Positions 20,554 to 63,732 of a DNA stretch of 64,000 bases are shown one piece after another. This stretch comes from Roseibium sp. (lineage in GTDB: Bacteria; Pseudomonadota; Alphaproteobacteria; Rhizobiales; Stappiaceae). The notes under the pieces are model-generated. The model saw only the letters and a list, made by a program, of their open reading frames with translations, was not told the origin of the DNA and did not search any database. The position numbers and the translations under genes are program-made. The DNA lies in NCBI RefSeq assembly GCF_965140465.1, contig NZ_OZ223238.1. The stretch is one strand, 5' to 3'. How positions within the stretch are numbered: the stretch's first letter is position 1; every line of letters begins with the position of its first letter.

Positions 20554-23211
20554 TTACGCGGATCTGAGTTTCCCAAGGAAACCGACGAATTTCTCGTCAA
20601 GTTCCGCAGATTGGTGAGACAGACTGTCTGCGGCTGTCAGGACCTGATCTGCGGCAGTACCAGCTTGTTGAACGGAACTTTGGACAACAACAATGTTGCT
20701 CGCAACATCTTGTGTTCCAACGGCAGCTTCTTGAGCGTTTCTAGAGATTTCCTGCGTAGATGCTGATTGTTGCTGGACTGCGGAGGCAATCGACGCAGAT
20801 GTATCTGAAATTTCGGAGATCACCTTTCGGATTTCACCAATTGAGACGACAGAGCTGTTGGTTGCGGTCTGCATGGCATTCACCTGTTGCTCAATGTCGC
20901 TGGTTGCCTTGGCAGTCTGGCTTGCAAGTGACTTCACTTCGCTCGCAACCACCGCAAATCCCTTGCCAGCTTCCCCGGCACGAGCGGCCTCAATTGTGGC
21001 ATTCAGCGCAAGAAGGTTTGTCTGTTCAGCAATTTCATTGATCATATTGACGACATTGCCGACATTCTGAGCCATTTCAGACAACTCTGTCATCGTGTCG
21101 GTCGCTTCTGCGCTGGCCTTTTCAGCATTTGATGTAATGCCCAGCGCATTTTCAACTTGCCTGATAATTTCCGCTATCGAACTCGTCATTTCCTCAGACG
21201 CAGCGGCGACGGTCTGAACGTTGGCAGACGCCTCTTCCGTTGCCCCTGCCACAGAAGTGGACTTGTGGTTCGCATCTTCTGACATCTGAGCCATGTTTTC
21301 TGCCGCAGAGCGCATTTGAGAAGCAGCTGTTGTCATGGCTTGAACGACGCTTTGCACATCGGCCTCCAGATCATCAGCCATTTTCAGTTGCGTATTTCGT
21401 TTGTCTTCTTCGATCCTTCTTTCGGCTTCCGCCTGCTCCTGCTCTAGCCGGACCTTCTCAATGGCGTTTTCCTTGAATATCTGAACCGTGCCCGCCATGT
21501 CGCCGATTTCATCACCGCGCCCGATACCGGGAACCTCGGTTTCCGTGTCCCCGCCTGCAAGTTTCTGCATTGCTTTGGTCATGGCGTTCAGGGGATTTGC
21601 AATGCCGCGGCCGATGAGCCATGCCATTAACAAGCTGACTAGAACGGCAGCGGAAGTACACGCAACAATAACCAGGTTGGTTGTCGAAACCGTTTGTTGG
21701 TTTTCTGCCAGACGAGCATTCATGAGCGCCTGTTCTTCTGCCTGGAAGTCGGTCATTAGGCCACGAAACGCGTCGAAGTACTTCTTTCCTCGCGCTTCTC
21801 CAACCAGATCGGCCATGTCATCCATTGTCTTGGCATTGCCGATTTCACGACGAAGAGCGATTGTGGGTTCTGTTACATTTGATTTCCAATCACTGATCGT
21901 CTTCTTGACTTCACCGAGAAGCTTGACCTGTGCAGGATTGTCACTGACGATTTTCTGCAGACTGTCGACAGCAGCAACGAATGCGTTTGAACCACCTTCG
22001 TAAGGCGCTAGAAAATCTTCCTTGCCAGCCAGCAGGTAACCCCGCATTCCGGTCTCCATGTCTAAAGCATGAGCCAGGATTTGGTTGGCCTGCTCGATCA
22101 CGCCATATGTATGAGTTACCCAGGCTTCGTTTTCGCTCATGTTCTCAAGAGCAGATTGTGCGTTGGAACTTGCAACCTCCGCCGTAGCCTGCCGTTCTGC
22201 AATCAGTCCTTTTTCAATATCCGAAAACTCGGCCATAACAGCTCGAAAGGAGTCAAAATACTTCTTCCCTTCTTTCTTCTGAACAAGATGCTCAACAGAA
22301 TCAAAAGACCGGGAACCAGTGACGACTTCGCGGCGAAGAGCGATTGCGTGTGAGGCGACTTTTTCAACCCAATCCCGGATCAACCTTTCTGCCTCTTCGA
22401 TACGCTACACCTGTGGCGGGTTGTCGCTTACAGTTTCCTTGAGTGCGCTCACTTCGACAAAGAACGCTTTCATCCCTCTTTCGTAAGGTTCGAGAAATTC
22501 ATCCTGCCCGGCGATCAGGAACCCCCGCATGCCCGTTTCCATGTCAACGGCATTTGCCACGATATGGGCGCTGGCAGACAAGACTTTGTGCGTATGGTCC
22601 ACCCACTCCATTGCCGAAATCAGTTCAGATTTTGCAGCCTGTACCCGGTCCTTTGCTGAGATAAATGCTTGTCGCCGCTCTTTAAGCAACTTGACTTCGC
22701 GTTCAGAGAACGTGGCAAGTTGTGTGCGGAAAGCATCAAAGTATTTCTTCCCGCGAGCTTCGGCCACCAGTTTGGCCATATCATTCATGGTCTTGGCATC
22801 ACCGATGTCCCTGCGCAGCTGAATTGTAGGCTCCGTCACATCCGCCTGCCACTCCTTTAGAATGGCTTCTATTTGCTGCAACCGCTCGACCTGACCCGGG
22901 TTGTCGCTGACGGTTTGCTTCAATTCACCGATCGCCGAGTAGGTCTTTTCCTCACCCTGCTTGTAAGGCTCGAGGAACCCTTCTTTTCCGGCCAAGAGGT
23001 ATCCCCTCATGCCGGTTTCCATATCGAGCGCGGAGCCGACAATACCCGAAGCATCCGCCAGAACGGTGTGTGTATGCTGAACCCATCGGTTCGTCTCTAC
23101 AATGCGACTGACTGACCAGTAGACGGTAGCACTTAGTGTTGCCAACAAGAGAATCGGAATGGCAAATCCAATAAGCACCTTTCTTTGAGTCCCAACATCC
23201 TGCAGCCGCAT
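20554..23211 (-). pseudogene. Chemoreceptor with three tandem CHASE3 sensor modules, HAMP and MCP signalling domain, interrupted by one in-frame TAG (22405-22407)
   Basis: Track ORFs 22405..23211 (268 aa) and 20554..22383 (609 aa) are in the same frame. My read across the junction is [27 protein letters not shown]. The two paralogous modules have VSDNPGQVERLQQIEAILKEW and [21 protein letters not shown] at the equivalent point. Each module carries W(V)xHTxxV...DMETGMRG(Y/F)L(L/I)AG. The continuous product would be about 885 aa. Confidence 0.8.
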
Positions 23212-23472
23212 ATCAGCACCTCAACATCAAATTCACGTAGCGTTAGAATCTAACTATTGAGCAAATATGTTTAACATTTCTAAATAAAAAAATTTATAAA
23301 CATTAGTACTTTTATCAATAAACTCGTTTTTTCTGAATAAATTCAAATAATTCAACCTTGCTTAGAATGAAATCTATTTTCTACTTCAAAGACGTGGTTA
23401 ACTCTTCAATCAACCGAGTGTCAGCAATAGAAAAAGACCAAGGCCTGTGATCGCAAAATTTATCTGATCTGC

Positions 23473-56168: not shown

Positions 56169-56975
56169 ATGGACGGCGTTCATATCGAGAATATTTCCAT
56201 GCGTTTCGACCTTCCGACCGGAGCGCACGTTCAAGCCCTGAAAGATGTATCCATTGAACTCGGCGTCGGCGAAATCATGTCGGTGCTTGGCCCTTCCGGA
56301 TGCGGCAAGACCACTCTCTTGAACATCGTTGCAGGCTTTCTGGCCCCGACCAGTGGTCAGGTTCGCATGAATGGACATGTGGTCACCGGGCCGGGTGCAG
56401 AACGCGGCATGGTGTTCCAGAAAGGCGCCCTCTTCGAGTGGATGAATGTCAGTCAGAACGTCGAGTTCGGACCGCGCATGAAATCCATGCCCAGGAAAGA
56501 GCGCATGCAGATCGTCGACCATCTGCTGGAGACCGTCGGACTTCAGGATTTCAAGGACAAGGCCGTCTACGAGCTTTCCGGCGGCATGCAGCAGCGTGTT
56601 GCCCTTGCCAGATGCCTTGCCAATGATCCCGATGTCATCCTGATGGATGAACCACTTGGCGCTCTTGACGCCCTGACCCGCGAAAAGATGCAGGGTCTGG
56701 TTCTCAAGCTCTGGAAGGAGACGGGCAAGACGGTCATCCTGATCACGCACTCGGTGGAAGAGGCTCTTCTACTGGGCGAAAGACTGCTGGTCATGGCACC
56801 GCGGCCCGGCCGGATCCACAAGGAATACCGGCTACCCTTTGCCGAGCGCGGTGTCGGTGCGGATCTCAGGGCCGTGAAGAAAAGCGAAGGCTTTGCCGAA
56901 ACCCGGGACGAAATCCTGTCAATGATCTGGGAAATGGAAGAGGAAATCATGGGCCGGTCGGAGACTGCAGCATGA
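56169..56975 (+). CDS. tauB: Taurine/sulfonate ABC transporter ATP-binding protein
   Basis: 268-aa ORF with Walker A GPSGCGKTT, the signature LSGGMQQRVALAR and Walker B ILMDEP. Confidence 0.9.
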   Translation: MDGVHIENISMRFDLPTGAHVQALKDVSIELGVGEIMSVLGPSGCGKTTLLNIVAGFLAPTSGQVRMNGHVVTGPGAERGMVFQKGALFEWMNVSQNVEFGPRMKSMPRKERMQIVDHLLETVGLQDFKDKAVYELSGGMQQRVALARCLANDPDVILMDEPLGALDALTREKMQGLVLKLWKETGKTVILITHSVEEALLLGERLLVMAPRPGRIHKEYRLPFAERGVGADLRAVKKSEGFAETRDEILSMIWEMEEEIMGRSETAA

Positions 56976-58234
56976 CCGGTCTTTTCATTCTCCTCCTCTA
57001 CGCCGCCCTCTTTTTCATCGGCTACCTGATCGTCCACTATGTGCGCACGCTCAGCCGTCCCAAACAGAGCCTGACCAGCCTGAAAACGGTGACCTTCGGG
57101 GATGAAAGCGCCATTCGCCCGGATCGGGCCGCATCGGTCATATCGGTGATCGTTATCTTCCTGATCTGGGGGGCTTTCACAGGGTCCAAATGGGTCCCCA
57201 TCCACATGCCCGGCCCCTTTGTCGGTGAAACGAGCTTCACCTACACGGCCACCGATGCGACCGGCCAGTCGGACACCGCAGAGGTGCGCGTCAGCGTCCA
57301 TGAAGTCGGCAAGAAGGTCGATGCGCCCGAGGTCGAGGCGAAAGACGGACATGCACAGCATGATTCCGCAGCCGTCGGTGCCTGGCGGTCCGTTCTGGTG
57401 AAGGTCACCCGCAATGATGGCGAAGGTGCCGAGGTCACCGCCGTCAACGGCACGGCGATCGCACCCGGTGAAACCGTCTCGGTTGAAAATGGTGACGTAA
57501 CCATGACACCAAAGGGATCGCTCTACTTCCACCCTTCCAAGGGGTTGCAGATGGAGCCGATCTGGATGCCGTCTCCCGAAGCCGTGGTGAAGCGTTTCGC
57601 CGAAATCGCATCTGCCGGCTATCAGAACTTCACGCTCTGGGAACATCTCGGCTGGTCACTGATGCGCGTGGTCGTGGGCTTCTTCCTGGGTGCACTGATC
57701 GGCATCCCGCTCGGCTATGCCATGGGATTGTCGAACTGGGTACGCGGCTGGTTTGATCCGATCGTTGAATTCATGCGCCCGGTCCCGCCACTGGCGCTGA
57801 TCCCGCTGGTCATCATCTGGTTCGGCATCTGGGAAACCGGCAAGATCGTGCTTCTGTTCCTCGCAGCGCTCTGGATCATGACGATTGCAGCCCGGGCCGG
57901 TGTCTCAGGCGTCAACATATCCAAGGTTCATGCCGCCTATTCGCTCGGGGCGACCAAGTCACAGGTTCTGCGTTACGTCATCGTGCCCAACTCGCTCCCG
58001 GAAATCTTCACGGGTGCCCGTGTTGCCATGGGGGTTTGTTGGGGAACCGTGGTTGCGGCCGAACTTGTCGCTGCCCAGAAGGGTGCCGGGATGATGATCA
58101 TCGCAGCCTCGAAATTCCAGCTCACGGATATCGTCATCATGGGGATCATCCTGATCGGAATTGTCGGCTACAGCATCGACATCCTGATGCGGTTCGCCGA
58201 GCGGATCCTCGTGCCCTGGAAGGGACACTCGTAG
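56972..58234 (+). CDS. tauC: Taurine/sulfonate ABC transporter permease with an extra N-terminal helix and a roughly 115-aa periplasmic insertion
   Basis: 420-aa ORF (ATGA overlap with tauB). The C-terminal roughly 225 aa align with my memory of E. coli TauC (TLWEHLGWSL..., FMRPVPPLALIPLVIIWFGIWETGKI, the EAA-loop region). Residues about 83-196 have no TauC counterpart. Confidence 0.85.
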   Translation: MTGLFILLLYAALFFIGYLIVHYVRTLSRPKQSLTSLKTVTFGDESAIRPDRAASVISVIVIFLIWGAFTGSKWVPIHMPGPFVGETSFTYTATDATGQSDTAEVRVSVHEVGKKVDAPEVEAKDGHAQHDSAAVGAWRSVLVKVTRNDGEGAEVTAVNGTAIAPGETVSVENGDVTMTPKGSLYFHPSKGLQMEPIWMPSPEAVVKRFAEIASAGYQNFTLWEHLGWSLMRVVVGFFLGALIGIPLGYAMGLSNWVRGWFDPIVEFMRPVPPLALIPLVIIWFGIWETGKIVLLFLAALWIMTIAARAGVSGVNISKVHAAYSLGATKSQVLRYVIVPNSLPEIFTGARVAMGVCWGTVVAAELVAAQKGAGMMIIAASKFQLTDIVIMGIILIGIVGYSIDILMRFAERILVPWKGHS

Positions 58235-58307
58235 GAGAGGATCAGGGCTCAACCGGTCGTGCTGGTTGGCAACGTCTCCAAATCCGAACGACAGGCTGGC
58301 TGAATGC

Positions 58308-58350
58308 AAAACCCCACCCGCTTCACCAAGGTGACGCGGGTGGGGTTTTT
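58308..58350. terminator. Bidirectional rho-independent terminator between tauC and the His-rich protein gene
   Basis: AAAA-CCCCACCCGC-(loop with inner TCACC/GGTGA pairing)-GCGGGTGGGG-TTTTT. Confidence 0.75.
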
Positions 58351-58373
58351 CGGTTTGAAATTCGTGGCCTGCG

Positions 58374-58727
58374 TCAAGCCGTTTCCAGCGGCCCATGATC
58401 ATCACAATGACCATCATGGGGATGATGCAATCGGCCATTCACGAGATAGCAGATGTGACCACCATGTGGCACGGCCTCGTGCCCACAGCCCGGCCCGTGC
58501 ACATGTTCAGGATCATGACCAAGGTCACCCGCGGACACCGGTGCGCAGCCCTCCGGGTTGGTGTCTGAAACTTCAATTACATGTTCCTCGACACGGTCCC
58601 CGTCCTGGTGATGCAAGTGCCCGTCGTGAAGATAGTCCACGTGATCACCATGGCGCACAGCGGTGTGGCCACAATTGGGGCCGTGAACGTGGCTGTGATC
58701 TCCGTTTCGCGGGTTGTTGTTCGTCAC
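58374..58727 (-). CDS. Small cytoplasmic His/Cys-rich protein built from two 28-aa repeats; putative metal-binding/buffering protein
   Basis: 117-aa ORF. The GTG start follows GGAAGGAGA at a 6-nt spacing and lies 19 nt after the arsR-family stop. By my count it has about 22 His and 5 Cys. Its repeats are HVHGPNCGHTAVRHGDHVDYLHDGHLHH and HVHGPGCGHEAVPHGGHICYLVNGRLHH. Confidence 0.7.
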   Translation of the reverse strand: MTNNNPRNGDHSHVHGPNCGHTAVRHGDHVDYLHDGHLHHQDGDRVEEHVIEVSDTNPEGCAPVSAGDLGHDPEHVHGPGCGHEAVPHGGHICYLVNGRLHHPHDGHCDDHGPLETA

Positions 58728-58746
58728 GACTTATCTCCTTCCAGTT

Positions 58747-59112
58747 CTAGACAAGGGATGGGTCCTCTGCCGCATGATCCAGTATGTCGCGCAGGAGATG
58801 CACAACATGATCATCGGCAAGGGTGTAGTAGATATGCTTTGCTTCCCGGCGTTTGCTGACCAGCCGTGCAGCATGTAGCTGTTTCAAACGCGCAGAGACC
58901 GTGGCGATCTTTTCGTCTTCTGCTTCTGCAAGTTCGGTGACACACCTTTCGCCGTTTGCCAACAACAGCATGATACGCAAACGCGCCGGATCACCGGCGG
59001 CCCGCAGCATCATTGCTGCAGCTTCAATGTTTGCCCGTGGTGGCAAGGTGGTGCTCTCACGCTGCGTATGTGCATCGGGGGAGCAGTCAGGCAGATCAGT
59101 CAATGGGGCCAC
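58747..59112 (-). CDS. ArsR/SmtB-family metalloregulator with an alpha5 (SmtB/CzrA-type) zinc site
   Basis: 121-aa ORF with the wHTH ARLRIMLLLANGERCVTELAEAEDEKIATVSARLKQLHAARLV. The C-terminal DDHVVHLLRDILDHAAE reproduces the SmtB D-x-H-x10-H-x2-E ligand spacing. Confidence 0.85.
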   Translation of the reverse strand: MAPLTDLPDCSPDAHTQRESTTLPPRANIEAAAMMLRAAGDPARLRIMLLLANGERCVTELAEAEDEKIATVSARLKQLHAARLVSKRREAKHIYYTLADDHVVHLLRDILDHAAEDPSLV

Positions 59113-59123
59113 TTTTATTTTTC

Positions 59124-59145
59124 CATTCTATCGAATGATAGAATG
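59124..59145. promoter_or_regulatory. 9-4-9 perfect palindrome CATTCTATC-GAAT-GATAGAATG; candidate operator of the ArsR/SmtB regulator
   Basis: Located 12 bp upstream of the regulator start codon in an AT-rich stretch. Confidence 0.55.
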
Positions 59146-59281
59146 ACACAAAAAATCCGCGATCTCAAGCCAGTCAGGAACGGGGCTCATCAAAGGCTGG
59201 AAACTGGCAACTCGATAGCGCTGAGATGTCCCCAACGCGGGCCTCGGTCATGGCCTGCCATTCCGACGAAAACTCAGGTCA

Positions 59282-59306
59282 CCAACACGCAAGTCCTGCG
59301 TGTTGG
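59282..59306 (-). terminator. 10-bp perfect hairpin downstream of the COG0523 operon; weak terminator candidate
   Basis: CCAACACGCA-AGTCC-TGCGTGTTGG. On the minus strand a short GTTTTCG lies 9 nt after the stem, so it is not a textbook terminator. Confidence 0.3.
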
Positions 59307-59391
59307 CACGGATTGTGTTCCAGAGGTTTTGGTGTCTGGCCTTCGACGCACTTGCAAAGAGGAACGCTAACTGCAGCAGAACCACGCATGG

Positions 59392-59676
59392 TCACTGTGA
59401 CTGTGAAAGCGTTTGCACCACCTCTGCAACAGCCTCTTTTGTCACTTCATTCATGTGCGTATGCACCCGGAGCGTTACGATCGGTTTTTCAGGTTCAAGA
59501 ACACCAATAACGGTTTCGATGTCCGGACAGCCATCGTCGCGGCAAGCCAGTTCGGCCACGGTGACCGGGCAATCCTCCTGCAACGCCATCTGCTCCCTTA
59601 CCCAGCTCTTTATCTCCGTCGACTTTGACTTCAAACGGGTGAATTTCGGGGCAAGAGGATTGTTGAATCCGGTCAT
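59392..59676 (-). CDS. Small conserved-looking hypothetical protein (94 aa, three Cys), translationally coupled to the COG0523 GTPase
   Basis: I trimmed the track ORF to ATG 59676, which forms an ATGA overlap with the upstream stop. The sequence contains [18 protein letters not shown] do not recognise the family. Confidence 0.55.
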
Positions 59677-60662
59677 GCTCCTGCCATTTCCGGCATGGCG
59701 AAACACTGCCTGAAACCCTCTTCAATGGTGTTGCGCGGGAGGTCCCGCCCAATGAAGACCATTCGGGTTGTCCGCGGCTCCTCCGGCGACCAGGGGCGTT
59801 GATGATTTCCTTCCAGCAACATGTGGACACCCTGCATTACAAAGCGATCATCATCGTCTTCGAAGGCAATGATTCCCTTCATGCGCAACATGTCGGGGCC
59901 AAAGGTCTGGGCGACCGACTGGATCCACGGAAAGAAACGCTGCGGATCGAGCGGCGTGTCGCTCAGGAGCGAGAAGCTGGTCACATGATCGTCGTGATGG
60001 TGATGGTGGCCGTGCTTAAGGAACTCCGGTTCAATCTCAAGCACACGATCAAGGCTGAACGCATCGCGACCGAGAACGTCCTCCAGCGCGACATGGCATC
60101 GTTCACTGCGGATGATCTTCGCTGTCGGATTGATTGCGCGTATGCGCGCCTCCACCTGCGCAATGTCTTCTTCGCCGACGAGGTCAATCTTGTTCAGGAG
60201 AACCAGATCGGCGAATGCCAGCTGCTCTTGCGCTTCATGGGCTCTGTCGATCTCGTCGAGCAAGTGTTTGGCATCGACCACGGTCACAATTGCATCAAGC
60301 TTCGTTTTCGCCTGAACGTCTTCGTCCATGAAGAATGTCTGCGCCACGGGAGCCGGGTCTGCGAGACCCGTGGTCTCGATCAGGATGGCATCGAAGTGGC
60401 CTTGGCGTTTCATCAGCCCGTCAATGATGCGAATGAGATCGCCACGCACGGTGCAACAAATGCAGCCGTTGTTCATTTCAAAGATTTCTTCGTCTGAATC
60501 CACGACGAGATCATTGTCGATCCCGATTTCACCAAACTCATTCACAATCACCGCATATCGTTTGCCGTGATTTTCGGTGAGAATGCGATTGAGCAACGTG
60601 GTTTTGCCTGCGCCAAGATAACCCGTGAGTACGGTGACGGGTGTCTGCTTCAAATCATTCAT
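59673..60662 (-). CDS. COG0523-family G3E GTPase (CobW/ZigA/YeiR-type zinc metallochaperone-like) with a His stretch
   Basis: 329-aa ORF with the P-loop [12 protein letters not shown], the metal motif GCICCT, the NKID switch region LLNKIDL and the His-rich linker [10 protein letters not shown] before the CobW_C domain. Confidence 0.9.
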
Positions 60663-61837
60663 TGCGACCTCCGAGACGTGTCGGTGAAATTGGAAAACTT
60701 GCGGGAAATCGACGTTCTCAGAACGCCTCCCGCGTTTTTGAGCGAGTTAACAAGCGAAAACGGAGCCTTTTCGAGTATCGCGGTAAACAGATCACGCACC
60801 GGTTCGGGATCGATCCCGTCCATGATGAACACAAGGCGTGTTCGGTGGTCTTCATCGGGCCAGGCAGGCAACCGGTTGGGCTTCGATACGGTGTGCTGGA
60901 CCGCATGGACAATCAGCGGCGCTTCCGGGCTTTCTTCGGTGGCGACGATCCCTTTCACACGCAACAGGCGCTGTCCGGCCGAGTTTTGGAGAAGGGACAG
61001 AAAGCGGTGAAATCGTTTCTCCGAGAGAGGGGTATCGCTGACAATGCTGAATGTTCGAATGCCATCTCCGTGCCTTGAAGACGAGCTGTGTCCGCTGGCT
61101 CGGTGGGCGTGTCCGGCATCCTGGGCCAGTACGGTTTCCAACGCCAACCACCCGGCCACGTCTTCTCCGCGGTCGATTTCCGAATAGGGCCGCGGTGAGA
61201 AAAGGCTCATCAGGTCGACGGTTTGACGGTCGATAATTTCCGCGCTTGCATTGAGTTCACGCAGTCCCTGTGTCAGCGAGACGCTGTCAGTGGCGACGTT
61301 CGTGTTCGTCGTCATGTCCGTTTTGGTCAGAACGATCTGATCCGCAAATGCGAGCTGTTTCAGCGCCTCGAAATGGTTCTCGACCGTCGCCGTCCCGGCA
61401 ATCGTGTCGAACAGGGTAACGACGCCTGCAAGGAAGAATTCAGGACTGTTGGTATCGTCCCGGTTTCCCGGTTCCGTGCCGGTGTTGGCGGCAAATGCAT
61501 TCACCAGCGGCGCCGGGTCGCCGAGCCCGCTCATCTCGACAATGACCCGCGCAAACTTGCCGGTCAGCCCCTCGGATACTGCATCCTCGAGATCAGCGAG
61601 TGTTTGACGAATGTCCGTTGAATCCGAGCAACACAAGCAGCCAGTGGAAATCTGGCTGATCGTTGTTTGCCCCTGTCGCACGAGCAAGTGATCAACCGAC
61701 ACGTCTCCGAACTCGTTGATGATCACAGCCGTGTCCTTGACGGAAGGATCTCCGAGGAATTCGTTCAGTAGCGTGGACTTGCCTGCACCCAGGAACCCAC
61801 TCAGCAAGAAAACTGGAATTCGGTCAGGAAGTACCAT
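60659..61837 (-). CDS. Second, longer COG0523-family GTPase paralog
   Basis: 392-aa ORF with the P-loop [12 protein letters not shown], the metal motif GCLCCS, LTKTDM and the His-containing linker [17 protein letters not shown]. It forms an ATGA overlap with the downstream paralog. Confidence 0.85.
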
Positions 61838-61894
61838 GGACTACAGGTCGCCTTGGGTTGACTGGTTTGCTTGAGCTCAAATGCCTTGCCGCTT

Positions 61895-62317
61895 TCAGAT
61901 ACAACGCGAGGAATGATGCCCGGAGATCCGCCAATCCCCGCCTGTTCTTTCAAAAGTGAACAGGAACCTTGCAGGAACTGTTTCCGGGCCGGTACTTCTT
62001 TGGAACAAGAAGGAATAGATCCCGGCAATCGCAACCGTGCAACGCTTGTGGTCAATCCGGATCTTTTCGCTGTTGATCGTGCATTCGGCTTTGCCGTTTG
62101 AAAGAAAGAACTCAAAATAGCGACGACGTCCGGCCTCATCGGAAACGATCTCGTTCGACAAGGTCGGCACCAGAATTGCGTCCGGTGCATAGAGCGCCAA
62201 AATACCCTCCACGCGACCTACCGCGACTGCCTCGGTCCATTGTCTCAAGGTTGTCCGCGCCGCCTCAATATCAGAGGTTTCATCGGTTTGTGACTGGTTG
62301 ACGACACTTTGTTGCAA
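61895..62317 (-). CDS. SnoaL/DUF4440-like (NTF2-fold) small protein, first gene of the COG0523 operon
   Basis: 140-aa ORF. The pattern WTEAVAVGRVEGILALYAPDAILVP...ARFLFTFERTGGDWRISGHHSS resembles SgcJ/EcaC/CaMKII-association-type NTF2 folds. Function unknown. Confidence 0.6.
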   Translation of the reverse strand: MQQSVVNQSQTDETSDIEAARTTLRQWTEAVAVGRVEGILALYAPDAILVPTLSNEIVSDEAGRRRYFEFFLSNGKAECTINSEKIRIDHKRCTVAIAGIYSFLFQRSTGPETVPARFLFTFERTGGDWRISGHHSSRCI

Positions 62318-62417
62318 GTCTTGATCCTGCCCTTGATCACGTTCTTCATATTGCGCGATTTGATGACCACGCAGCCTTCCAAAGGTGCGTTTACAGTCTC
62401 AATTGCTTCGCAACGTT

Positions 62418-62429
62418 ATGTTATAACGT
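62418..62429. promoter_or_regulatory. Zur-box-like motif ATGTTATAACGT upstream of the COG0523 operon
   Basis: 11/12 match to the palindrome ATGTTATAACAT (the ATGTTATA half-site is the core of proteobacterial Zur boxes). It is embedded in ACGTTAT-GTT-ATAACGT (62413-62429), 96-112 bp upstream of the 62317 start. Confidence 0.45.
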
Positions 62430-62562
62430 ATTGAGTTCAAATCAAGGCAAGTGGGCTTGTTAGTCCCAGATGATGCAGGGTCAACCAAACCGAGGCCTCA
62501 TGCACGCCGACACGAGGTCAAAGGCACATTTGGTCACCACACAAAATCGTAGATTGACTGTT

Positions 62563-62574
62563 ATGTTATATCAT
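62563..62574. promoter_or_regulatory. Second Zur-box-like motif ATGTTATATCAT upstream of folE
   Basis: 11/12 match to ATGTTATAACAT. It shares the 11-mer GTTATGTTATA with the first site (62415-62425 and 62560-62570) and lies 44 bp upstream of ATG 62618. Confidence 0.4.
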
Positions 62575-62617
62575 TGCATTTATGTCGCCCGATCAAACGA
62601 CAGAGGTTGTGAGACAT

Positions 62618-63256
62618 ATGACTTATGCTGCGACTGTTGCAGCCATGGCAGAGTATCGACGGGAACACGGGTTGCGCCCGTCCCGTGCTGATGCCGAAGC
62701 AGCTGTTCGGGTCCTGCTTGAGTGGAGCGGCGACAATCCGGACCGCGAGGGACTCGTTGACACTCCGGCGCGCGTTGTTCGCGCTTACGAAGAATTCTTC
62801 GAAGGGTACAATATCGATCCTGCGGAACTGCTGGCCCGCACGTTCGAAGAGACAAATGATTACAATGATCTCATCGTGCTCCGGAACATGCGGCTGGAAT
62901 CGCACTGCGAACACCATGTCGTGCCGATCATTGGCAAGGTGCATGTCGCCTACCTACCGGCCAACCGTGTTGTTGGTATCAGCAAACTGGCCCGTGTCGT
63001 GGAAGTTTTCGCAAAGCGGCTTCAAATCCAGGAAACCCTGACCTCTCAGGTTGCCGACACCATCCAGGAGGTGCTGCAACCTCGCGGCGTCGCCGTTGTT
63101 GTCGAAGCGGCGCACATGTGCATGACCACCCGCGGCATCAAGAAGCCGGGCGTTTCCATGATGACCCGACGCCTGCTGGGCGAATTTCAAACGGATGCTG
63201 AACTTCGAAGAGACTTTCTGTCTTCGATCAGTGGTTACAAAGGCGAGAACGTGTGA
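62618..63256 (+). CDS. folE: GTP cyclohydrolase I, type IA (zinc-dependent FolE)
   Basis: Motifs [15 protein letters not shown], the zinc-ligand motif [21 protein letters not shown], and [10 protein letters not shown]...RLQIQE. I chose ATG 62618, which follows GAGG; the track start ATG 62582 is possible. Confidence 0.85.
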
Positions 63257-63732
63257 TGACGACCAACAGTCTTTTCGCAAACCGCGTTTCGGTGGAACAG
63301 GTAGAGGAGGGCAAACTTCTCGCACCGAAATTTGACGCAAATGGTTTGTTGCCTGTCGTGACGACCGATGCCGAATCCGGCGAAGTGCTGATGATGGGCG
63401 TGATGAACGAAGAAGCCCTCACGCTCACGATCAAAACCGGTGAAGCCCATTACTGGAGCCGGAGCCGCAAGTGCCTGTGGCACAAGGGGGCGACCAGCGG
63501 ACTCATCCAGAAGGTTGTCGAATTGCGGATTGACGATGACCAGGACGCCGTTTGGCTGCGTGTTGCCATTGATGGCGGTGCGAGCTGCCACGTCGGCTAC
63601 CGCTCCTGTTTCTATCGCGCGGTACCTGTCGAGGTCGAAAACGGCCCCGTCGAACTACAGTTCACCGAAACGGAAAAAACCTTTGATCCAGTGGAGGTCT
63701 ATGGCGACGCTCCAAACCCGACCCAGTTGTGA
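63256..63732 (+). CDS. hisI: Phosphoribosyl-AMP cyclohydrolase (monofunctional HisI)
   Basis: Motifs [43 protein letters not shown] and [11 protein letters not shown]...[12 protein letters not shown]. The ATG shares one nt with the folE stop (TGATG). Confidence 0.9.

What the first reader, a model, noticed from the sequence alone, without database searches (positions are those of the whole stretch)
58374..59145. SmtB-type zinc sensor paired with a tandem-repeat His/Cys-rich 117-aa protein: possible non-canonical metallothionein-like buffer
This is a self-contained two-gene unit on the minus strand.

- **Operator candidate:** a perfect 9-4-9 palindrome (59124-59145) lies 12 bp before the regulator gene.
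- **Regulator:** an ArsR/SmtB protein whose C-terminus, DDHVVHLLRDILDHAAE, reproduces the SmtB alpha5 zinc-ligand spacing D-x-H-x10-H-x2-E.
- **Cargo gene:** it starts 19 nt after the regulator stop behind a strong GGAAGGAGA RBS, and a clean bidirectional terminator (58308-58350) follows it.
- **Cargo protein:** about 19% His by my count (22 His, 5 Cys in 117 aa), with no signal peptide or TM segment. It consists of two copies of a 28-aa module, HVHGP(N/G)CGH(T/E)AV(R/P)HG(D/G)H(V/I)(D/C)YL(H/V)(D/N)G(H/R)LHH, identical at 19 of 28 positions.

The layout mirrors smtB-smtA (a metal-derepressed sensor plus a sequestering protein), but the cargo bears no resemblance to Cys-rich SmtA/BmtA. I cannot place the repeat in any characterised family from memory.
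Basis: partly seen in the sequence, partly recalled or inferred. Interest (0 to 1): 0.7.

Follow-up and report, generated by a model that had tools for sequence, protein, structure and literature searches.

The report
Zinc sensor with histidine-rich partner protein
A metal-sensing repressor resembling the zinc sensor SmtB is paired with a small, folded, histidine-rich protein from a large, widespread and apparently unstudied family, which is probably a cytoplasmic zinc-binding buffer in bacteria that lack classical metallothioneins.

Summary

- **Regulator:** the closest solved structure by sequence is SmtB. All four alpha5 zinc ligands are conserved, and it has an SmtB-like alpha3N Cys/His set.
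- **Operator:** the 9-4-9 palindrome is one instance of a motif, ATTCyAT-N6-ATrGAAT, found just upstream of orthologous arsR genes in about 17 other genomes.
- **Cargo:** the 117-aa protein matches nothing in Pfam, NCBIfam or PDB sequences, and Foldseek finds no PDB neighbour. It still belongs to a large family: 3520 clusters at 90% identity, in many phyla.
  - The His/Cys ligands are invariant.
  - AlphaFold2 gives a confident model (pLDDT 89.5) of two four-stranded beta modules.
- **Pairing:** ArsR lies next to the cargo gene in 33 of 80 genomes. All 9 close ArsR homologues found in metagenomes have the cargo gene directly downstream. More than 100 clusters are in-frame ArsR::cargo fusions.
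- **Zinc context:** the family repeatedly sits in zinc islands (COG0523, Zur/Fur, ZnuA, ZIP, CDF). In this window it follows a COG0523 operon that has a Zur box.
- **Other fusions:** the domain is also fused to C2H2 transcription factors in Amoebozoa and to a ZnuB-like permease.

Best reading: a zinc-derepressed, autoregulated operon whose only output is a multi-site cytosolic zinc-binding protein. Metal binding and metal specificity are inferred, not shown. I found no literature on the family.

The parts
59124..59145 (.). Operator candidate: perfect 9-4-9 palindrome CATTCTATC-ATTC-GATAGAATG. It contains a -10-like TAGAAT (59125-59130 on the minus strand).
   Evidence: (I2). The motif ATTCyAT-N6-ATrGAAT recurs just upstream of, or at the over-extended start of, arsR in about 17 other loci and in L095. 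It occurs once in the window against 0.05 expected.
58747..59112 (-). arsR/smtB-type metalloregulator gene, 121 aa, GTG start. Alpha5 ligands are D100, H102, H113 and E116. The alpha3N-type candidates are C10, H15, C57 and E60.
   Evidence: Pfam HTH_5 E = 9e-11. NCBIfam HTH_metalloreg scores 73.9 bits against a cut-off of 55. The best PDB sequence match is SmtB 1r1t, E = 5e-16, with the ligands aligned. Conservation is shown in alignment A3.
58734..58742 (-). Shine-Dalgarno sequence GGAAGGAGA for the cargo gene; its AAGGAG core ends 7 nt before the GTG.
   Evidence: Read directly. SD-like purine runs occupy the same position, inside the ORF, in all 9 fused orthologues examined.
58374..58727 (-). 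Cargo gene: 117-aa His/Cys-rich protein made of two homologous modules (residues about 11-49 and 73-111) joined by a linker with a conserved N-P-x-x-C.
   Evidence: There are 3520 homologous clusters and 830 representatives at 50% identity. His and Cys are invariant. The codon-position pattern supports this frame. The AlphaFold2 model has pLDDT 89.5 and pTM 0.81.
58308..58349 (.). Bidirectional intrinsic-terminator-like hairpin shared with the convergent ABC permease gene (56972-58234 +).
   Evidence: I1: 20-nt arms, 95% complementary.: -36.6 kcal/mol, z = -4.6.
59673..61837 (-). Context, not part of the unit: two tandem COG0523 (CobW-family) GTPase genes, 60659-61837 and 59673-60662, directly upstream on the same strand.
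   Evidence: Pfam cobW plus CobW_C: E = 5e-63 / 2e-26 for one gene and 2e-35 / 9e-21 for the other.
62415..62427 (.). Context: Zur-box match GTTATGTTATAAC (GTTA-N5-TAAC) inside the palindrome ACGTTAT-gtt-ATAACGT. It lies about 98 nt upstream of the SnoaL-like ORF that heads the COG0523 gene string.
   Evidence: 2 matches in the window against 0.01 expected. The motif definition comes from PMC4176598.

Best explanation
The region 58374-59145 is an autoregulated two-gene operon.

**Proposed mechanism**
1. A dimeric SmtB-like ArsR repressor binds the palindrome ATTCTAT-N6-ATAGAAT. The palindrome overlaps the -10 element, and the transcript is probably almost leaderless.
2. When cytosolic Zn(II) rises (possibly Cd or Co as well), metal binds at the alpha5 site D100/H102/H113'/E116', and probably also at an alpha3N site.
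3. Metal binding lowers DNA affinity, and both genes are transcribed.
4. The second product is translated from a strong ribosome-binding site. It is a soluble, folded 117-aa protein of two four-stranded beta modules lined with conserved His, Cys and Asp.
5. This protein binds several zinc ions and so buffers or sequesters labile zinc, possibly holding it for later release. As free zinc falls, the repressor rebinds and closes the loop.

**Shown here**
- the gene structure
- the regulator class and its ligand motifs
- operator conservation
- family-wide and reciprocal regulator-cargo linkage, including fusions
- zinc-gene neighbourhoods
- a confident fold prediction with no known structural relative

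**Inferred**
- that the cargo binds metal
- the stoichiometry
- zinc as the cognate metal
- buffering as the physiological role
For: **Regulator**
- It is a member of the ArsR/SmtB class.
- SmtB is the closest solved structure by sequence, with D/H/H/E aligned.
- D100, H102 and H113 are invariant in 19 sequences. The N-terminal Cys and the alpha3 Cys are present together or absent together.

**Operator**
- The motif is conserved across genera and occurs once in the window.

**Cargo**
- 27 His+Cys in 117 aa.
- 16 ligand-type residues are invariant in 88 sequences.
- 15 remain invariant when Firmicutes plasmid copies, amoebozoan copies and the permease fusion are included.
- There is no TM segment or signal peptide.
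- The frame is under purifying selection.

**Linkage**
- ArsR is adjacent or fused in 33 of 80 genomes.
- 9 of 9 close ArsR homologues have the cargo gene 30-40 nt downstream.
- More than 100 fusion clusters exist.
- The same two-gene cassette sits between mobile-element genes on a Pediococcus plasmid and beside the replication gene repA on a Pantoea plasmid.
- A monocistronic fused gene in Bartonella sp. keeps the operator. The cargo domain is therefore the only visible output there.

**Zinc**
- COG0523, ZnuA, Fur, TonB receptors or ABC ATPases lie near the gene in 20 of 80 loci.
- Fused genes sit in islands with cobW, an L28 gene, ZIP, CDF and FUR.
- In the window, the unit follows a COG0523 operon with a Zur box.
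- One family member is fused to a ZnuB-type ABC-3 permease.
Against: - No experiment or metal-site geometry is available. Model coordinates could not be inspected.
- The sequence is far more conserved (60-79% identity across phyla) than known His-rich metal sponges. That points to a precise structure or a specific partner rather than simple chelation.
- 45 of 80 genomes carry the gene without ArsR, and the regulation there is mostly unknown.
- Proximity to Zur/COG0523 zinc-starvation genes would also fit a role under zinc limitation.
- Residues H42 and H45 of the family consensus are D and R in the window protein.
- Alpha5-type ArsR sensors cannot be assigned a metal from sequence alone.
Confidence: 0.6

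Rival explanations
1. The protein is a zinc reservoir or hand-off partner rather than a detoxifying sink. It takes up zinc and passes it to COG0523 GTPase metallochaperones or their clients, so it matters mainly when zinc becomes scarce.
For: - The unit lies directly behind two COG0523 genes with a Zur box.
- COG0523 genes are nearby in 13 of about 94 loci, in varied arrangements. This includes the closest relatives L084 and L085 and the Paraburkholderia plasmid string COG0523-WD40-cargo.
- Fused genes sit next to cobW, an L28 gene and FUR.
- The Cupriavidus metallidurans literature describes CobW2 as a zinc storage protein (PMC11647595).
Against: - ArsR/SmtB repressors derepress at high metal, not low.
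- No Zur box lies upstream of arsR or the cargo gene in the window. A related Zur-like pattern (GTTAT-N1-3-ATAAC, one mismatch allowed) matched only 3 of the 47 ArsR-less upstream regions, all weakly.
- The plasmid cassettes carry no COG0523 gene.
Confidence: 0.2
2. The His-rich domain is a regulatory metal-sensing module. It works with DNA-binding domains, for example by setting the response threshold of ArsR or by acting as a co-regulator, and is not a bulk metal binder.
For: - The domain is fused in frame to ArsR in more than 100 clusters.
- It is fused to LisH/C2H2 zinc-finger transcription factors in Physarum, Cavostelium and Nematostelium.
- Its very high conservation fits a specific interaction.
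Against: - AlphaFold2 of a fused protein gives two confident domains joined by a disordered linker, with pTM 0.52. No docking interface is predicted.
- All 9 fused ORFs examined keep an internal SD-like motif and an ATG exactly at the start of the domain. Free protein may therefore still be made.
- ArsR already carries complete sensing sites of its own.
- 45 of 80 genomes have the gene without ArsR.
Confidence: 0.13
3. The cognate metal is not zinc but nickel, cobalt, cadmium or copper. The protein would then be a storage or detoxification protein for that metal, in the manner of Hpn.
For: - His-rich proteins such as Hpn store nickel.
- Some alpha5-type ArsR sensors (NmtR, KmtR) respond to Ni/Co (PMC11672702).
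- Some COG0523 proteins handle cobalt.
- Three orthologues have a promoter that looks MerR-type (19-bp spacer), as in Cd/Pb/Zn regulons.
Against: - The regulator has the four-ligand DxHx10Hx2E set of SmtB, and SmtB is its best solved-structure match.
- The neighbourhoods are zinc-specific: ZnuA, ZIP, an L28 gene beside cobW, and a Zur box.
- No nickel or cobalt enzymes or transporters were seen nearby.
Confidence: 0.06
4. The 117-aa ORF is not a real gene; the plus-strand mirror ORF (58304-58750) or no ORF is expressed.
For: The mirror frame is open in the window.
Against: - Thousands of conserved homologues exist.
- Substitutions show a third-position bias in the minus-strand frame, and the mirror frame is closed in 57 of 81 orthologues.
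- The gene has a strong ribosome-binding site and a terminator.
Confidence: 0.01

Closest known systems
SmtB-SmtA (Synechococcus PCC 7942) and BxmR-BmtA (Oscillatoria brevis): an ArsR/SmtB zinc sensor controlling a bacterial metallothionein
   Same: - The repressor is a SmtB-like alpha5 (plus alpha3N) type.
- The regulated product is a small cytosolic protein dense in metal ligands.
- No exporter is needed in the unit.
- The logic is the same: derepression at high metal, then feedback through sequestration.
   Different: - The cargo is unrelated to SmtA/BmtA. It has no Pfam hit, and it has 22 His and 5 Cys where SmtA has a Cys-dominated metal cluster (from memory, nine Cys and two His).
- It is 117 aa with two beta-meander modules.
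- The genes form a co-directional operon, and are often fused, rather than being divergent.
- The operator half-sites (ATTCyAT) differ from the SmtB 12-2-12 site as I recall it.
Hpn / Hpn-like His-rich nickel storage proteins of Helicobacter pylori
   Same: Both are small cytosolic proteins with a very high His content, under the control of a metal regulator.
   Different: - Hpn proteins are low-complexity, fast-evolving and nickel-specific.
- This family is a strongly conserved, confidently folded domain with fixed His/Cys positions, and it is found in zinc contexts.
COG0523 GTPases with His-rich stretches (for example CobW2 of Cupriavidus metallidurans, described as a zinc storage protein)
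   Same: Both show cytosolic, His-based zinc binding and sit in the same zinc islands. Two COG0523 genes lie directly upstream in this window.
   Different: There is no GTPase domain and no sequence similarity. Regulation is by ArsR (metal excess) rather than Zur (metal limitation).
Cytosolic His-rich loops or domains of metal transporters, and zinc-responsive eukaryotic zinc-finger factors (Zap1, MTF-1)
   Same: The domain occurs as a C-terminal appendage of a ZnuB-type permease and of C2H2 transcription factors. Those are positions where metal-sensing or metal-receiving segments are known.
   Different: It is a discrete, conserved, folded domain shared between bacteria and Amoebozoa. It is not homologous to any described regulatory segment, and this comparison rests on my own knowledge of those systems.

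Membership tests
ArsR/SmtB metalloregulators, alpha5 zinc-sensor type (regulator gene) | Winged helix-turn-helix of the ArsR family | tested here: met
   Pfam HTH_5 E = 9e-11. NCBIfam NF033788 scores 73.9 bits against a cut-off of 55.
ArsR/SmtB metalloregulators, alpha5 zinc-sensor type (regulator gene) | Alpha5 ligand motif D-x-H-x10-H-x2-E/H | tested here: met
   D100, H102, H113 and E116 align with SmtB D104, H106, H117 and E120. D, H and H are invariant in 19 sequences.
ArsR/SmtB metalloregulators, alpha5 zinc-sensor type (regulator gene) | Alpha3N site (N-terminal Cys/His plus Cys and an acidic residue in alpha3), as in SmtB/ZiaR | tested here: inconclusive
   C57 and E60 align with SmtB C61 and D64. 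The N-terminal C10-x4-H15 is present, and the N-terminal Cys and alpha3 Cys co-occur or are co-absent across homologues. The N-terminal part of SmtB was not in the alignment.
ArsR/SmtB metalloregulators, alpha5 zinc-sensor type (regulator gene) | Palindromic operator overlapping its own promoter | tested here: met
   The 9-4-9 palindrome contains TAGAAT and ends 12 nt before the start codon. The motif is conserved in about 17 other loci plus L095.
ArsR/SmtB metalloregulators, alpha5 zinc-sensor type (regulator gene) | Metal-dependent release from DNA, and identity of the inducing metal | not testable with these tools
   This needs EMSA or reporter assays with Zn, Cd, Co and Ni.
Bacterial metallothionein (SmtA/BmtA) | Sequence membership of the bacterial metallothionein family | tested here: not met
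   No Pfam or NCBIfam family matches at E <= 1, and there is no PDB sequence hit.
Bacterial metallothionein (SmtA/BmtA) | Cys-dominated metal cluster in a short chain of about 55 aa | tested here: not met
   The protein has 5 Cys and 22 His in 117 aa and a predicted all-beta two-module fold.
Hpn-like low-complexity His-rich metal sponges | Low-complexity or poly-His sequence, poorly conserved and largely unstructured | tested here: not met
   Ligand positions are fixed, identity across phyla is 60-79%, and the pLDDT is 89.5.
Uncharacterised two-module His/Cys family (working name Hrp) | Two copies of H-x-H-G-P-x-C-G-H-x4-H-x2-H-x-D-Y-L...L-H-H...H-x-D-D/E-H, joined by a linker containing N-P-x-x-C | tested here: met
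   The window protein carries all invariant columns of A2 (88 sequences) and A4 (cross-kingdom).
Uncharacterised two-module His/Cys family (working name Hrp) | Binding of several metal ions per chain | not testable with these tools
This needs ICP-MS, ITC or a structure.
Zur regulon | Zur box (GTTA-N5-TAAC) in the promoter of the gene | tested here: not met
   The only matches in the window are at 62415-62427 (upstream of the COG0523 gene string) and 23242-23254. There is none in 59146-59391.

The most novel reading that the evidence does not exclude
The His/Cys two-module domain is an ancient, portable zinc-sensing or zinc-receiving module, not just a sponge. On this reading it acts physically with DNA-binding proteins (ArsR in bacteria, LisH-C2H2 factors in Amoebozoa) and with transport or chaperone machinery (ZnuB-type permease, COG0523). 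It would set the zinc set-point of transcription or route zinc between sensor, store and clients. That would make it a new class of metal-signalling domain shared across kingdoms, with a fold that has no solved relative.
Probability: 0.2. Interest if true: 0.85.

Novelty: new variant of a known kind. Interest (0 to 1): 0.66.

Why it matters
Most bacteria have no metallothionein, and what buffers cytosolic zinc in them is still an open question.

This family gives a concrete candidate to test:
- It has its own dedicated SmtB-like sensor with a conserved operator.
- It has a predicted fold with no solved relative.
- It is fused to regulators, to a zinc permease and to eukaryotic transcription factors.

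If it binds zinc as predicted, it would be a histidine-based functional counterpart of metallothionein. The operator and repressor would also be a ready-made zinc-responsive genetic switch.

Tried and rejected
**Searches that found nothing**
- Pfam, NCBIfam and PDB sequence searches of the cargo gave no match.
- Foldseek of the confident model against the PDB gave a best E of 1.6 and TM scores at or below about 0.2.
- Seven literature searches found no description of the family. These included peptide fragments of the protein, which gave 0 hits. The 2024 Chem Rev metallostasis review does not mention such a protein in the portion of its text that is held.
- A search of complete E. coli genomes found no match.
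- Pfam on ten longer family members found no further fusion partners.

**Ideas tested and not supported**
- A Zur box upstream of ArsR-less orthologues: only 3 weak matches in 47 regions, so Zur control of the gene itself is unsupported.
- The MerR-type promoter idea fits only 3 of 80 loci. I could not verify my recollection of the PbrR/CadR/ZntR operator sequences in the library.

**Technical limits**
- The alignment-based metagenome scan with the ArsR alignment failed because no stretch was conserved enough. I replaced it with a single-sequence scan.
- One fused protein (P0317) was not on record for a context look-up.
- Model coordinates are not exposed, so the His3Cys site question could not be answered.
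Full report
**1. Observation**

The minus strand carries two ORFs: arsR at 58747-59112 (121 aa, GTG start) and a second ORF at 58374-58727 (117 aa, GTG start).
- They are separated by 19 nt containing GGAAGGAGA.
- A perfect 9-4-9 palindrome, CATTCTATC-ATTC-GATAGAATG (59124-59145), ends 12 nt before the arsR start.
- A hairpin with 20-nt arms at 58308-58349 follows the second gene. It folds at -36.6 kcal/mol, z = -4.6, and is shared with a convergent ABC permease gene.
- The second protein has 22 His and 5 Cys and no hydrophobic segment.
- It contains two 28-aa modules identical at 19 of 28 positions. The best score in 300 shuffles was 11.

The plus-strand mirror ORF is an artefact of composition.
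- Against ten orthologues, substitutions fall about 70 at codon position 3 and about 22 at positions 1 and 2 of the minus-strand frame.
- The mirror frame is closed in 57 of 81 orthologues.

**2. The regulator**

It matches Pfam HTH_5 and NCBIfam "metalloregulator ArsR/SmtB" above the curated cut-off. The closest solved protein by sequence is SmtB (1r1t, E = 5e-16).
- The four alpha5 zinc ligands of SmtB (D104, H106, H117, E120) align with D100, H102, H113 and E116.
- SmtB C61 and D64 in alpha3 align with C57 and E60.
- In 19 regulators that accompany this cargo, plus SmtB, D100, H102 and H113 are invariant.
- An N-terminal Cys (C10-x4-H15 here) is present exactly in those proteins that also keep the alpha3 Cys.

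That co-occurrence is what an alpha3N site would produce. The assignment of SmtB ligands is from my own knowledge of the SmtB literature. The DxHx10Hx2(H/E) definition is quoted in PMC11672702.

**3. The operator**

Exact-palindrome searches upstream of orthologous arsR genes recovered closely related sites:
- TCATTCTAT-N6-ATAGAATGA in Oceanicaulis
- TATTCTAT-N6-ATAGAATA in Brucella oryzae
- CATTCTA-N8-TAGAATG in Bradyrhizobium
- a 15-nt-arm version in Salinisphaera

The pattern ATTCnA-N8-10-TnGAAT, with one mismatch allowed, lies within a few tens of bases of the arsR start in about 17 ArsR-bearing loci. Elsewhere in 837 kb it is scattered thinly. The generalised motif occurs once in the 64-kb window, against 0.05 expected.

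The palindrome contains a TAGAAT -10-like hexamer only 12 nt from the start codon. The transcript would therefore be nearly leaderless, and a bound repressor would occlude the promoter. Both points are inference.

**4. The cargo family**

The protein matches nothing in Pfam or NCBIfam at E <= 1 and no PDB sequence. It is nevertheless a member of a very large family.
- There are 3520 clusters at 90% identity and 830 representatives at 50% identity.
- The 80 loci kept come from Alpha-, Beta- and Gammaproteobacteria, Planctomycetota, Verrucomicrobiota, Cyanobacteria, Myxococcota, Acidobacteriota, Gemmatimonadota and others.
- Firmicutes plasmids also carry it.
- Identity to the window protein is 61-79% for the best 120 hits.
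- In 88 sequences these residues are invariant: H13, H15, C19, H21, H26, H29, C61, H75, H77, C81, H83, H88, H91, H104, D109 and H111. Most other His are at least 90% conserved.

**5. Predicted structure**

AlphaFold2 with the 88-sequence alignment gives pLDDT 89.5 and pTM 0.81. The model has two four-stranded beta meanders, at residues 22-49 and 84-113. The strands are separated by G-D, D-G or N-G turns, so His residues alternate along the strands. Foldseek finds no PDB neighbour: best E is 1.6 and TM scores are at or below about 0.2.

I could not inspect coordinates. The arrangement of ligands into sites is therefore not established.

**6. Linkage of regulator and cargo**

Forward test, 80 genomic loci:
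- 26 have an ArsR gene immediately upstream on the same strand.
- 4 have ArsR and cargo in one reading frame.
- 3 have a divergent ArsR.
- 45 have no ArsR within 6 kb.

Reverse test: a scan with the window ArsR found 11 metagenome loci. All 9 with at least 59% identity have the cargo gene 30-40 nt downstream.

Other evidence:
- The two-gene cassette also stands alone between transposase and integrase genes on Pediococcus damnosus plasmids, and next to repA on a Pantoea ananatis plasmid.
- A search with a fused protein found more than 100 clusters of 205-276 aa covering at least 85% of the 228-aa query. Sources annotate them as ArsR/SmtB transcription factors; examples are Bartonella sp. HY761, Fulvimarina endophytica and Methylocella.
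- In Bartonella sp. the fused gene is monocistronic among unrelated genes. It keeps the operator ATTCTAACAATCATTAGAAT 13 nt upstream. The only visible output of derepression there is the His-rich domain itself.

Two observations temper the idea that the fusion means an integrated sensor.
- All nine fused ORFs examined keep an ATG exactly at the start of the domain, preceded by an SD-like purine run. The consensus of 71 fusions keeps that Met at 90% or more.
- AlphaFold2 of a fused protein shows two confident domains joined by a disordered linker, with pTM 0.52.

**7. Zinc context**

In the window:
- The unit follows two COG0523 GTPase genes and a small Cys-containing ORF on the same strand.
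- That gene string is headed by a SnoaL-like ORF. About 98 nt upstream of it is ACGTTAT-gtt-ATAACGT.
- This site matches the proteobacterial Zur motif GTTA-N5-TAAC (PMC4176598). There are only two matches in the window, against 0.01 expected.
- No such box precedes arsR.

Elsewhere:
- Zinc-uptake-type genes lie within four genes of the cargo in 20 of 80 loci.

| Neighbour | Loci |
|---|---|
| COG0523 | 9 |
| ABC ATPases | 7 |
| TonB receptors | 5 |
| Fur family | 3 |
| ZnuA | 2 |

- Fused genes sit beside cobW plus an L28 gene, ZIP, CDF, MerC, FUR and a TonB receptor. Others sit beside ZIP, FUR and Nramp, or beside three cobW genes and FUR.
- The closest relatives of the window unit also keep an orthologue of the second COG0523 gene about 2 kb away.

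A Zur-linked location does not by itself imply induction by starvation. In Synechococcus WH8102, the single sensor Zur controls large variations in zinc quota (abstract of PMC9337993, listed). My recollection that it also activates the metallothionein gene was not checked in the text.

**8. Other contexts**

- Three ArsR-less orthologues (Burkholderia, Achromobacter, Pseudomonas oryzihabitans) share a conserved block about 70 nt upstream. It has TTGAC(T/A), a 19-bp spacer with an imperfect dyad, and a T-x-x-A-A-T hexamer. A 19-bp spacer is the hallmark of MerR-activated promoters. The resemblance to ZntR/CadR/PbrR sites is from memory and could not be verified.
- The whole two-module domain forms the C-terminus of LisH/C2H2 zinc-finger proteins of Physarum polycephalum, Cavostelium apophysatum and Nematostelium gracile.
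- It also forms the C-terminus of a bacterial ABC-3 (ZnuB-type) permease.
- One eukaryote-like protein has a Cys-rich, metallothionein-like linker between the two modules.
- Across all these forms, 15 ligand-type residues stay invariant: H13, H15, C19, H21, H26 and D31 in module 1, and H77, C81, H83, H88, H91, H104, H107, D109 and H111 in module 2. Several other His of the bacterial forms vary. This suggests a core of fixed sites plus peripheral ones (inference).

**9. Mechanism and rivals**

The best-supported reading is a zinc-derepressed, autoregulated operon whose output is a multi-site cytosolic zinc-binding protein, with feedback through lowered labile zinc (confidence about 0.6). The rivals are:
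- a reservoir or hand-off role with COG0523 chaperones (0.2)
- a regulatory sensing module (0.13)
- a different cognate metal (0.06)
- a non-gene (0.01)

The unusually high conservation and the cross-kingdom fusions keep the second and third rivals alive.

**10. Comparison and novelty**

In function and layout this works like SmtB-SmtA or BxmR-BmtA. The cargo fails both membership tests for bacterial metallothionein, and it is not a low-complexity Hpn-type protein. It defines a family that, as far as Pfam, NCBIfam, the PDB and the searchable literature show, has not been described. I rate it a new variant of a known kind.

It is interesting because it offers a testable histidine-based answer to how metallothionein-less bacteria buffer zinc.

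Noticed in passing
window 59392-62429 (minus strand): A probable Zur-controlled gene string lies directly upstream of the arsR unit. It consists of a Zur-box palindrome (62413-62429), a SnoaL-like ORF (61895-62317), COG0523 (60659-61837), COG0523 with an [10 protein letters not shown] stretch (59673-60662) and a small ORF (59392-59706).
   Followed up: partly
window 59392-59706 (-); L060 4438-4746 (-): The small ORF after the COG0523 genes has no Pfam hit but carries a conserved T-V-x-E-L-A-C-x-(D/E)-(D/E)-G-C-x-x-I-E-T-V motif. A homologue sits between two COG0523 genes in a gammaproteobacterial MAG. It may be an unrecognised COG0523-associated small Cys protein.
   Followed up: partly
window 62560-62572 and 62582-63732 (+): GTTATGTTATATC, one mismatch from the Zur motif, lies 10 nt before a folE (GTP cyclohydrolase I, type IA with the CEHH motif) and hisI pair. 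Both encode zinc enzymes, so these may be Zur-controlled copies.
   Followed up: no
window 59282-59306: A perfect 10-bp inverted repeat (CCAACACGCA / TGCGTGTTGG, 5-nt loop) lies between the small ORF and arsR. It could insulate the two transcription units, but no U-run follows it directly.
   Followed up: no
window 56972-58234 (+): A TauC-like ABC permease carries an N-terminal insert of about 190 aa that matches bacterial Ig (Big_9) and cadherin-like domains. This is an unusual architecture for a permease subunit.
   Followed up: no
window 23242-23254: The only other exact GTTA-N5-TAAC match in the window (GTTAGAATCTAAC) lies just upstream of a chemoreceptor-like ORF (22405-23211, minus strand). 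It is probably unrelated to zinc.
   Followed up: no
L006, L011, L020, L072, L095-L099 (fused arsR::cargo ORFs): Every fused ORF keeps an SD-like purine run and an ATG exactly at the start of the His-rich domain. One gene may therefore yield both the fusion and the free domain. The linker residues (for example K-E-E, E-G-E) look constrained by the internal ribosome-binding site.
   Followed up: partly
L018 about 5931, L039 about 5930, L073 (about 70 nt upstream of the cargo start): A conserved 31-bp block has a -35 TTGAC(T/A), a 19-bp spacer and an imperfect dyad in Burkholderia, Achromobacter and Pseudomonas oryzihabitans. It looks like a MerR-family (ZntR/CadR-type) activated promoter driving ArsR-less copies.
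   Followed up: partly
P0141, P0205, P0220 (Amoebozoa); P0257; P0155: The whole domain occurs at the C-terminus of LisH/C2H2 zinc-finger proteins of slime moulds. It also occurs flanking a Cys-rich, metallothionein-like linker in another protein, and at the C-terminus of a ZnuB-type permease.
   Followed up: partly
L083 1520-4300 (Paraburkholderia sprentiae plasmid): Here the cargo gene follows a COG0523 GTPase gene and a WD40-repeat protein gene on the same strand, with no ArsR. This is a different operon partner set.
   Followed up: no
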